In this document: one piece after another, positions 1,055-1,439 of the stretch
Numbering within the stretch: position 1 is the stretch's first letter
How the letters are laid out: each line of letters begins with the position of its first letter
Source of the DNA: a virus
Lineage: Duplodnaviria; Heunggongvirae; Uroviricota; Caudoviricetes
Length of the DNA: 10,981 bases
IMG/VR virus record: IMGVR_UViG_2562617057_000004
Location: 1 to 10,981 of that record
Reading direction: 5' to 3' (one strand)
The notes under the pieces: generated by a model
Told to the model about the DNA's origin: nothing
Database searches by the model: none
Seen by the model: the letters and a program-made list of their open reading frames with translations, nothing else
Translations under genes and position numbers: made by a program

Positions 1055-1339
1055 CTACCGCCGCAACCGTTCCGGCTTCTTCCACTGGTAAGTATTTTTC
1101 ATGCTCTCCCTCCGTTGTTGAGAACGGCGACGGTATGCCAGCAACTCAAGGACTCTGGTTCGTATGTTGCGCATATCCACGCCGTTAAGCTCAATACCGT
1201 CACGGCGCATAACCTCAGCAACAACACGCGCATAGTTTTCGGCTGTCACGCTGTCCGGCTGCGTGGCCACCTGTTTGCCTGTTGCCTGACTGATTCCGGT
1301 AATACGGCGGATTACTTTCAGTAGTTCGGCGTCGGTCAT
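1055..1339 (-). CDS. Hypothetical protein; probably the C-terminal part of a frame-split Nu1/TerS-like (Rpp-like) packaging protein
   Basis: ORF track 1055..1354; the internal ATG at 1339 has a GGAGA Shine-Dalgarno 8 nt upstream; this frame stays open upstream to 1399, overlapping the HTH ORF. Confidence 0.5.
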   Translation of the reverse strand: MTDAELLKVIRRITGISQATGKQVATQPDSVTAENYARVVAEVMRRDGIELNGVDMRNIRTRVLELLAYRRRSQQRRESMKNTYQWKKPERLRR

Positions 1340-1439
1340 GGTTATGGTCTCCATAGTGATGGGGGAACAATTTCTGTAATCTGCGAAGCTGGCGATCGGT
1401 CAGACTCAAATGCCTGGCAACTTCAGTCTGAGTAGCCAC
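1215..1439 (-). CDS. Small HTH protein, Nu1-like N-terminal DNA-binding segment; only about the first 25 codons look genuine before a probable frame change
   Basis: GTG start at 1439 preceded by GAGGTG SD; N-terminus MATQTEVARHLSLTDRQLRRLQKLF is HTH-like; remainder of the frame is low complexity (NPPYYRNQSGNRQTGG..CACCC); sits directly downstream of cosB as Nu1 does in lambda. Confidence 0.45.
   Translation of the reverse strand: MATQTEVARHLSLTDRQLRRLQKLFPHHYGDHNHDRRRTTESNPPYYRNQSGNRQTGGHAAGQRDSRKLCACCC

What the first reader, a model, noticed from the sequence alone, without database searches (positions are those of the whole stretch)
1055..1439. Nu1/TerS-like HTH gene downstream of cosB is split across two frames at a G5/C5 homopolymer
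The HTH N-terminus (from GTG 1439) runs into low-complexity sequence, while the +1 frame is open from 1399 and encodes a protein-like 94-plus residues. The frames cross at plus-strand GGGGG 1361-1365. This could be a sequencing indel, a pseudogenised packaging gene, or a programmed frameshift yielding a roughly 125-aa protein. By position it is the candidate for redirecting helper terminase to the island cos.
Basis: partly seen in the sequence, partly recalled or inferred. Interest (0 to 1): 0.55.

Follow-up and report, generated by a model that had tools for sequence, protein, structure and literature searches.

The report
Leftover phage terS stub beside cos
The apparent "split gene" is the first 24 codons of a helper-phage small-terminase gene, copied into an E. 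coli satellite island along with the phage's packaging (cos) site and sitting next to an unrelated, intact 94-residue gene, so it is an ordinary recombination scar and not a frameshifted or recoded gene.

Summary
The sequence is as described: GTG 1439 opens a TerS-like helix-turn-helix that turns into junk. A second frame encodes a real protein, and a C5 run (1361-1365, minus strand) lies where the two meet. The two halves are not one gene.

Window 1368-1664 runs from the cohesive-end site (cosN) through three R-type repeats (cosB) and the terS ribosome-binding site to terS codon 24. It is 96% identical to the cos-terS region of a rare lambdoid prophage whose TerS is a complete 169-aa Nu1-family protein. 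Homology stops at 1368.

From 1365 downstream the sequence matches the leader and body of a stand-alone 93-97-aa gene (phrog_1561, full-length match). Related islands carry that gene behind an Rpp gene, a complete TerS-like gene, a TerL-like gene or an AT-rich insert.

No in-frame HTH fusion appeared among the 120 listed hits (926 total) or 39 cluster representatives. The C5 run is identical in nine independent assemblies, so it is not a sequencing error. RefSeq already annotates 1368-1439 as a partial pseudogene.

The window has no Rpp or complete TerS. The island most likely packages by copying its helper's cos. All three complete genomes with this island also carry the matching prophage. 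Interest is low.

The parts
1702..1721 (-). GC-rich hairpin plus T run right after the scaffold-like gene (stop at 1725), on the cosQ side of cos
   Evidence: Terminator-like hit. This left flank is 58/60 identical to island L001 but only 35/60 to the phage.
1653..1664 (-). cosN cohesive-end 12-mer GGGCGGGAGCGG, a variant of lambda GGGCGGCGACCT
   Evidence: Alignment with the EDL933 and CFSAN029787 prophages and with island L001. The variant co-occurs with the stub in 6 of 6 IMG/VR loci.
1368..1664 (-). Phage-derived block: cosN, cosB (R3, spacer, R2, R1), the terS ribosome-binding site and terS codons 1-24
   Evidence: 284-285 of 297 bases identical to the CFSAN029787 and VL7S7 prophages. The mismatches cluster at bp 61-106 from the nick.
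1607..1614 (-). R3-type repeat (ATGTCCGG on the minus strand), bp 51-58 from the nick
   Evidence: This position matches the lambda R3 position given in PMC9026076.
1548..1555 (-). R2-type repeat (CCGGACAT on the minus strand)
   Evidence: It is invariant in both phages and in island L001.
1518..1525 (-). R1-type repeat (CCGGACAT on the minus strand)
1368..1439 (-). terS stub: GTG start plus 23 codons (helices 1-2 of the HTH), a pseudogene fragment
   Evidence: 92-99% DNA identity to the 5' end of prophage terS genes in more than 1100 E. coli genomes, ending at 1368. tblastn matches TerS residues 1-24 only. It matches phrog_7289 positions 2-24 of 91 and phrog_57 (TerS). PGAP annotates it as 'incomplete; missing C-terminus' in the identical strain VL7S7.
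1366..1367 (-). Recombination junction (TT of uncertain origin) between the phage block and the island's own sequence
   Evidence: Phage homology ends at 1368. Island homology (L003, 91%) starts at 1365.
1361..1365 (-). C5 run. It belongs to the leader of the 94-aa gene and corresponds to CCCGCC in relatives
   Evidence: Alignment A1. It is invariant in nine assemblies.
1215..1367 (-). Out-of-frame read-through of the stub ORF (50 junk codons) over the start of the next gene
   Evidence: Low-complexity translation. In 81 homologous genes this frame ends anywhere from 2 to 46 codons in.
1055..1339 (-). Intact 94-aa gene (phrog_1561 family, function unknown). GGAG at 1349-1352 lies 9 nt upstream of the ATG. 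An alternative start is at 1354
   Evidence: phrog_1561 at E 1.5e-50, full length. WP_000128610.1 in RefSeq. 926 homologues. Variable sites by codon position are 34/32/68.
900..1054 (-). Conserved island segment downstream of the 94-aa gene
   Evidence: 91% identical in islands at a different chromosomal site (clpS side).

Best explanation
The region is a scar left when an EcCICFT073-type satellite island (PICI) exchanged its packaging-site module. Shown: the island carries integrase, AlpA, a D5-type primase, SSB, a lambda E-like capsid protein, a D-like decoration protein and a Nu3-like scaffold. It holds a roughly 300-bp block from a lambdoid phage that runs from the cohesive-end site through cosB and the terS ribosome-binding site into terS codon 24. 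At that point the block is joined to the untranslated leader of the island's own last gene, a 94-aa protein of unknown function. Inferred: the terS stub came along only because the recombination end-point fell 72 nt inside the gene. If transcribed, it can be translated from its intact GAGGTGA-GTG start into a 74-residue peptide with a nonsense tail, and it has no role of its own. Inferred: because cosN and all three R repeats are identical to the phage's, the helper's own TerS/TerL should recognise and cut the island DNA directly. That would be cos mimicry, as described for SaPIbov5, so this island would need neither the Rpp nor the TerS-like protein that sister islands encode in this slot. 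The 94-aa gene is expressed on its own, from ATG 1339 or 1354.
For: Phage origin and truncation: window 1368-1468 matches the 5' end of prophage terS in more than 1100 genomes, always ending at 1368. The full gene is 169 aa and belongs to Pfam Phage_Nu1. Only residues 1-24 are present in the window. 285 of 297 bases from the nick to codon 24 match the CFSAN029787 prophage, including the unusual cosN. Separate downstream gene: a full-length phrog_1561 match that starts at the second Met. Homologues are 93-97 aa, and their occasional N-terminal extensions are unrelated to TerS. Variation is enriched at third codon positions in that frame, and the other frame has no conserved stop position. Variable slot: among 80 related loci the gene is preceded by the stub (6), a complete Nu1-type TerS-like gene (31 of 80), an Rpp (PDB 6HLK match), a 553-aa TerL-like ORF or an AT-rich insert. 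Not an error: the junction is identical in 3 complete genomes and 6 IMG/VR contigs, although nearby bases differ in L012-L014. PGAP calls 1368-1439 a partial pseudogene. Helper link: the matching cos-terS at 99% or more occurs in only 8 of 5426 genomes, and all 3 island-bearing genomes are among them. The window has no Rpp or TerS elsewhere. Precedent for carrying a helper's cos: PMC6092414.
Against: Nothing here shows packaging, cutting at this cos, or helper dependence. In VL7S7 the co-resident matching prophage is itself decayed, with IS600 in terL and a truncated portal gene, and the CFSAN029787 copy has a frameshifted portal gene. No working helper is therefore demonstrated. The co-occurrence statistic ignores clonal relatedness of the strains. 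The stub clade is too shallow (stub 100% identical in all copies) to tell neutral retention from selection. The 12 mismatches between R3 and R2 could affect IHF bending. The CCC-C sequence is in principle prone to +1 slippage, so trace amounts of a fusion cannot be excluded. The function of the 94-aa protein is unknown, so a packaging role for it is not ruled out.
Confidence: 0.85

Rival explanations
1. Programmed +1 ribosomal frameshift on UUC-CCC-C. Ribosomes starting at GTG 1439 slip on the proline codon and produce a 127-aa protein, the TerS HTH fused to p94, which acts at cosB.
For: The stub keeps an intact SD-GTG start. CCC-C is a known +1-prone tRNA-Pro site (established knowledge). A one-base shift gives an open 127-codon frame. 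C5 is invariant in nine copies.
Against: No such fusion among the 120 listed of 926 hits, or among 39 cluster representatives from 1.8 billion proteins. Relatives have CCCGCC and no upstream ORF. There is no stimulatory element: no SD-like motif upstream, and the next codon is an ordinary CAU. The 24 residues lack the wing and helix 3 of the TerS DNA-binding domain (PMC6739421). The invariance of C5 says little, because the whole stub is 100% identical across the clade. The junction coincides with a homology breakpoint, as expected for a recombination scar.
Confidence: 0.03
2. Sequencing or assembly indel in the homopolymer. The true sequence has C4 and a single 127-codon gene.
For: Homopolymers are typical sites of indel errors, and one C fewer fuses the frames.
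Against: C5 is identical in three complete genomes from different laboratories and in six IMG/VR contigs from different genome projects. Even if fused, the two halves have unrelated homologies.
Confidence: 0.01
3. In-situ decay. An ancestor of this island carried the complete phage-type terS between cos and p94, and a later internal deletion removed codons 25-169 and the spacer. The present state is the same but the history differs: a lost packaging gene, not a truncated acquisition.
For: Many sister islands carry a complete Nu1-family TerS-like gene in exactly this slot (31 of 80 loci). Deletion is a common route of pseudogenisation.
Against: None of the 80 loci or E. coli hits shows an island with the 169-aa phage-type terS upstream of p94. 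The island TerS-like genes are only 43-51% identical to it, and only in the C-terminal half. No trace of TerS residues 25-169 remains.
Confidence: 0.1
4. The 74-residue stub peptide is itself functional, for example as a decoy that pairs with helper TerS monomers and interferes with phage packaging, a minimal Rpp-like activity.
For: An intact translation start. Residues 1-24 are identical to the helper TerS, and lambda TerS residues 11-13 of helix 1 take part in dimer contacts (PMC9026076).
Against: Helix 3 (residues 43-51), the other half of that interface, is missing. The remaining 50 residues are low-complexity read-through of another gene, in a frame not conserved among homologues. There is no family match beyond the 24 residues.
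Confidence: 0.02

Closest known systems
EcCICFT073-type Gram-negative PICIs with the cos1-rppA arrangement (Fillol-Salom 2018, PMC6092414; 2019, PMC6739421)
   Same: The same island architecture: int, alpA, primase, an E-like capsid gene and a D-like decoration gene (c1499/c1500 equivalents), a lambda-type cosQ/cosN, then a slot for a packaging-specificity gene, then a small terminal gene. Sister loci of this window carry an Rpp in that slot.
   Different: Those islands have a cosB unlike the helper's and need Rpp to retarget TerS. This one has no Rpp. Its cosB is copied from a phage, and only a 24-codon terS stub occupies the slot.
SaPIbov5-type cos satellites that carry the helper phage's cos (cited in PMC6092414)
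   Same: Inferred packaging logic: the satellite carries the helper's own cos, so the unmodified helper terminase packages it. It also encodes a capsid-protein homologue.
   Different: A Gram-positive system with HNH-dependent cos phages and no sequence relationship. Function is demonstrated there and only inferred here.
Lambdoid TerS / gpNu1 (Pfam PF07471) of the EDL933 and CFSAN029787-type prophages
   Same: The stub's 24 residues, ribosome-binding site and upstream cosB are 92-99% identical in DNA to these genes.
   Different: Only 24 of 169 codons remain. The wing, helix 3, oligomerisation domain and TerL-binding domain are absent.
IS-truncated terS fragments in O157 prophages (phrog_7289; HB6 locus)
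   Same: Another annotated 5' fragment of the same terS type (91 codons, cut by an IS66-family element), which explains the phrog_7289 hit.
   Different: There the truncation is an IS insertion within a prophage. Here it is a junction with satellite DNA.

Membership tests
Phage small terminase, Nu1 family (PF07471) | Complete N-terminal winged HTH DNA-binding domain (about 60 aa: helix 1, helix 2, wing, helix 3) | tested here: not met
   Only residues 1-24 (helices 1-2) are present. tblastn matches TerS residues 1-24 only.
Phage small terminase, Nu1 family (PF07471) | Central oligomerisation region and C-terminal TerL-binding region (the part Pfam Phage_Nu1 matches in the full 169-aa protein) | tested here: not met
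   The full phage protein hits PF07471 at residues 49-150. The stub, the 74-aa ORF and the conceptual fusion give no Pfam hit.
Rpp (redirecting phage packaging) proteins | 139-154 aa with an N-terminal wHTH (conserved R21/T22/R25/K29) and a C-terminal dimerising coiled coil; sequence similarity to RppA/B/C | tested here: not met
   BLASTP of the fusion against an RppA-type protein gives E 5.7. The 94-aa protein has no PDB match, whereas a sister-island ORF hits RppC 6HLK at 5e-31. tblastn of RppA/C against the whole window finds nothing.
Programmed +1 frameshift gene | A slip-prone codon context at the frame junction | tested here: met
   UUC-CCC-C at 1361-1367. By itself this is common sequence.
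Programmed +1 frameshift gene | Two-frame arrangement and slippery site conserved among homologues, with both parts belonging to one protein family | tested here: not met
   Homologues are single 93-97-aa ORFs. The site is CCCGCC in relatives. The upstream part belongs to a different family (TerS).
Programmed +1 frameshift gene | Stimulatory elements (an SD-like sequence a few nt upstream; a slow or stop codon in the A site) | tested here: not met
   The upstream sequence is CAGAAAUUGUU and the next codon is CAU. Neither feature is present.
phrog_1561 (the 94-aa gene) | Full-length match to the family profile | tested here: met
   E 1.5e-50, residues 6-99 against profile positions 1-93 of 93.
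Lambda-type cos site | cosN with flanking conserved sequence, and cosB with an R3-spacer-R2-R1 repeat layout at lambda-like distances | tested here: met
   Alignments. Repeats lie at bp 51-58, 110-117 and 140-147 from the nick, with one inverted.
Lambda-type cos site | Cleavage and packaging by a helper terminase | not testable with these tools
   This needs transduction or in vitro cos-cleavage assays.
Gram-negative PICI (EcCICFT073-like) | int, alpA, a primase/replication module and a packaging or interference module, with no tail or lysis genes | tested here: met
   Pfam and PHROG hits for AlpA, D5-type primase, SSB, E-like capsid, D-like decoration and scaffold-like genes. The integrase ORF is at 9743-10981.
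Gram-negative PICI (EcCICFT073-like) | Induction, excision and transfer dependent on a helper phage | not testable with these tools
   The only support is co-residence with a matching (decayed) prophage in 3 of 3 genomes.

The most novel reading that the evidence does not exclude
The stub is not inert. Ribosomes that start at the intact phage terS start codon slip +1 on CCC-C at low frequency and make a 127-aa protein. That protein would join the helper-type HTH helices to the conserved satellite protein p94 and tether p94 to the island's cosB during packaging. It would be a newly evolved, recoding-dependent packaging factor.
Probability: 0.03. Interest if true: 0.55.

Novelty: new member of a known kind. 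Interest (0 to 1): 0.15.

Why it matters
As proposed (a frameshift-split or recoded terminase-like gene), the finding would have been a new packaging factor; it is not one. What is left is modest. It is a clean example of a satellite island swapping its whole cosN-cosB cassette for that of a particular, rare helper type with non-lambda cohesive ends. This leaves the Rpp/TerS slot empty, so in E. coli PICIs packaging specificity may change by exchange of the DNA site as well as by Rpp or TerS proteins. The terS stub marks the end-point of that exchange. For annotation, 1368-1439 should stay a pseudogene fragment and 1055-1339 a separate gene.

Tried and rejected
1. Single-gene hypothesis. The conceptual fusion (one C removed) was searched against Pfam, PHROGs and 5.8 billion proteins. 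Only the two parts match, each its own family, and no fused homologue appeared. A weak phrog_18880 hit (E 0.002) spans the junction. It was not followed up and is treated as chance.

2. Function of the 94-aa protein. There was no Pfam, NCBIfam or PDB sequence match. The exhaustive representative search found only 39 clusters, mostly fragments 62-91% identical, plus three at 31-47%. The AlphaFold model (three helices, pLDDT 69) has no Foldseek PDB match with E below 1. hhalign against TerS gave probability 0.1%. The function stays unknown.

3. PDB sequence searches with the phage TerS and the island TerS-like protein gave nothing.

4. The genome-contig scan returned a single locus (Shigella) and was uninformative.

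5. I looked for microhomology that would explain the exact junction. None was convincing, and the TT at 1366-1367 is unassigned.

6. I looked for a second cos, an Rpp or a TerS elsewhere in the window and found none.

Full report
**Observation.** The genes here lie on the minus strand. GTG 1439, preceded by GAGGTGA at 1449-1443, opens a 74-codon ORF that ends at 1215. Its first 24 residues (MATQTEVARHLSLTDRQLRRLQKL) look like a helix-turn-helix, and the rest is low-complexity. A second frame is open from 1399 to the stop at 1055-1057, with ATGs at 1354 and 1339. A C5 run sits at 1361-1365, and one C fewer would fuse the two frames. The description is accurate.

**Setting.** The window is an E. 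coli satellite island of the EcCICFT073 (Gram-negative PICI) type.
- Integrase ORF at 9743-10981.
- AlpA at 9124-9420.
- Two C4 antisense RNAs and isrK, with two Icd-like ORFs.
- D5-type primase at 5141-6895 and SSB at 4174-4596.
- A lambda E-like major capsid protein at 2498-3553 and a D-like decoration protein at 2151-2486.
- A 137-aa protein at 1725-2138 that resembles the C-terminal, scaffold part of head maturation proteases.

EcCICFT073 likewise encodes a capsid protein (c1499) and a decoration protein (c1500). Its cos1 site is recognised through RppA (c1503) (PMC6092414, PMC6739421).

**Upstream half.** Window 1368-1468 comprises the 24 codons plus 29 nt of leader. It is 92-99% identical to the 5' end of 'terminase small subunit' genes of lambdoid prophages in more than 1100 complete E. 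coli genomes, and every match stops at 1368.

The full gene is 169 aa (EDL933 WP_000235436.1; CFSAN029787 WP_000235445.1). It is followed by terL, the head-tail joining protein gene, the portal gene and an S49 protease gene, and it belongs to Pfam Phage_Nu1. The weaker phrog_7289 hit probably reflects IS-truncated 91-codon fragments of the same gene in O157-type prophages.

The similarity extends upstream. From the cos nick (window 1664) to terS codon 24, 285 of 297 bases match the CFSAN029787 prophage. This stretch includes an unusual cohesive-end 12-mer, GGGCGGGAGCGG where lambda has GGGCGGCGACCT. It also includes three R-type repeats at bp 51-58, 110-117 and 140-147 from the nick, one of them inverted relative to the other two.

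The 60 bp to the left of the nick instead match a sister island (58/60) and not the phage (35/60). TerS residues 25-169 are absent from the window in every frame.

**Downstream half.** From 1365 onward the window is 91% identical to islands that lack the stub. There the C5 run reads CCCGCC, so the run belongs to the leader of the next gene.

That gene is a full-length member of phrog_1561: residues 6-99 of the 99-aa ORF match profile positions 1-93 of 93, E 1.5e-50. PGAP annotates it as the 94-aa WP_000128610.1 starting at ATG 1339, and annotates 1368-1439 as a partial pseudogene 'missing C-terminus'. GGAG lies 9 nt upstream of ATG 1339.

A search with the conceptual fusion found 926 homologues. 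The 120 listed cover only the 94-residue part. The few longer ORF calls have unrelated N-terminal extensions.

An exhaustive search of 1.8 billion cluster representatives found 39 clusters and no larger architecture containing this domain.

Across 81 gene copies, variable sites by codon position are 34/32/68 in the p94 frame. The GTG frame ends anywhere between 2 and 46 codons into the gene.

The 94-aa protein has no similarity to TerS or Rpp.

**What occupies the slot elsewhere.** In 80 IMG/VR loci holding this terminal gene, the sequence between cos and the gene varies:
- the 24-codon stub, in 6 loci that all carry the variant cosN;
- a complete Nu1-family TerS-like gene of about 180 aa, in 31 of the 80 loci;
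- an Rpp gene; one 144-aa ORF hits RppC, PDB 6HLK, at 5e-31;
- a 553-aa TerL-like ORF ending a few bases upstream;
- an AT-rich insert.

In this island the slot is empty apart from the stub, and the window encodes no Rpp or TerS elsewhere.

**Error or recoding?** The junction and the C5 run are identical in three complete genomes (FDAARGOS_943, O121 201805972, VL7S7) and six IMG/VR contigs, although L012-L014 differ at two nearby bases. A sequencing indel is therefore excluded.

CCC-C is a slip-prone proline context. However, there is no stimulatory element, no conservation of the arrangement outside this shallow clade, and no fused homologue. The frame change also coincides with a homology breakpoint. 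A programmed frameshift is unsupported, though not formally excluded.

**Mechanism.**
- Shown: a phage-derived cosN-cosB-terS' block abuts an independent gene.
- Inferred: the island replaced its own cos right arm, and whatever specificity gene followed it, with the cos of a particular helper type.
- Inferred: the helper's unmodified terminase can then bind the R repeats and cut the matching cosN. This is the strategy described for SaPIbov5 (PMC6092414) and differs from the Rpp strategy of EcCICFT073.

Consistent with a specific partner, cos-terS at 99% identity or more occurs in only 8 of 5426 complete E. coli genomes, and all three genomes carrying this island are among them. The hypergeometric probability is 2e-9 and is not corrected for clonality.

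There is a caveat. In VL7S7 that prophage is decayed, with IS600 in terL and a truncated portal gene. In CFSAN029787 the portal gene is frameshifted. No functional helper has been demonstrated.

**Unresolved.** The function of the 94-aa protein is unknown. The AlphaFold model has three helices at pLDDT 69 and no fold match. It is also unclear whether the stub arose by truncated acquisition or by later deletion of a complete terS.

**Verdict.** The 'split gene' reading is not supported. The feature is a pseudogene stub at a module junction, already flagged by RefSeq annotation. Interest is low.

Noticed in passing
window 1653-1664 (minus strand): The cohesive-end 12-mer is GGGCGGGAGCGG, five differences from lambda's GGGCGGCGACCT. 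The same variant occurs in a rare lambdoid prophage type (cos-terS at 99% identity or more in 8 of 5426 complete E. coli genomes). Other islands in the sample have GGGCGGCGACCT or GGGCGGCAGACG.
   Followed up: partly
window 1368-1724: The cos site is a hybrid whose breakpoint is at or next to the nick. The left 60 bp match a sister island (58/60) and not the phage (35/60). The right 297 bp match the phage (285/297), and all but one of the mismatches cluster between R3 and R2 (bp 61-106).
   Followed up: partly
L089 (VL7S7 chromosome 1183437-1196169), and the hits: All three genomes with this island also hold a prophage with the matching cos-terS. In VL7S7 that prophage has IS600 inside terL. 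Its portal gene is truncated next to an integrase, an HTH regulator and a BRO-N gene, which looks like another element inserted into a late gene.
   Followed up: partly
window 7415-8294: A tandem duplication of an immunity-like cassette: two C4 antisense RNAs (7631-7719, 8109-8196), each followed by an Icd-like ORF (7415-7579, 7869-8054; NF033153, E about 1e-16), plus isrK (8218-8294). The 415-aa and 167-aa ORFs listed there are read-through artefacts.
   Followed up: partly
window 1055-1339 and loci L009-L088: The 94-aa gene is the last gene of several different satellite architectures (behind Rpp, a TerS-like gene, a 553-aa TerL-like ORF or an AT-rich insert). The family is very narrow (39 clusters at 50% identity in 1.8 billion proteins) and its function is unknown.
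   Followed up: partly
N-terminus of p94 homologues (window 1337-1354; P0011, P0020, P0060): Homologues differ in the number of ATGACC (Met-Thr) repeats at the start of the gene (MTMTE, MTMTMTE, MTMTMTMTE). This is a hexanucleotide repeat polymorphism at the initiation region.
   Followed up: no
window 1725-3553: The island carries its own lambda-type head module: an E-like capsid protein, a D-like decoration protein, and a 137-aa protein matching only the C-terminal (Nu3/scaffold-like) part of head maturation proteases. There is no portal or protease gene.
   Followed up: no
L003 3691-4233 and about 30 IMG/VR loci: The TerS-like proteins of sister islands (about 180 aa, Pfam Phage_Nu1) resemble the prophage TerS only in the C-terminal half (43-51% identity). 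Their N-terminus is different, as expected if they keep TerL binding but change DNA specificity.
   Followed up: no
L001 3370-3714 and L042 2068-2412: Some sister islands have an AT-rich insert of about 350 bp, with a doubtful 114-aa ORF, between cosB and the 94-aa gene instead of any packaging gene.
   Followed up: no
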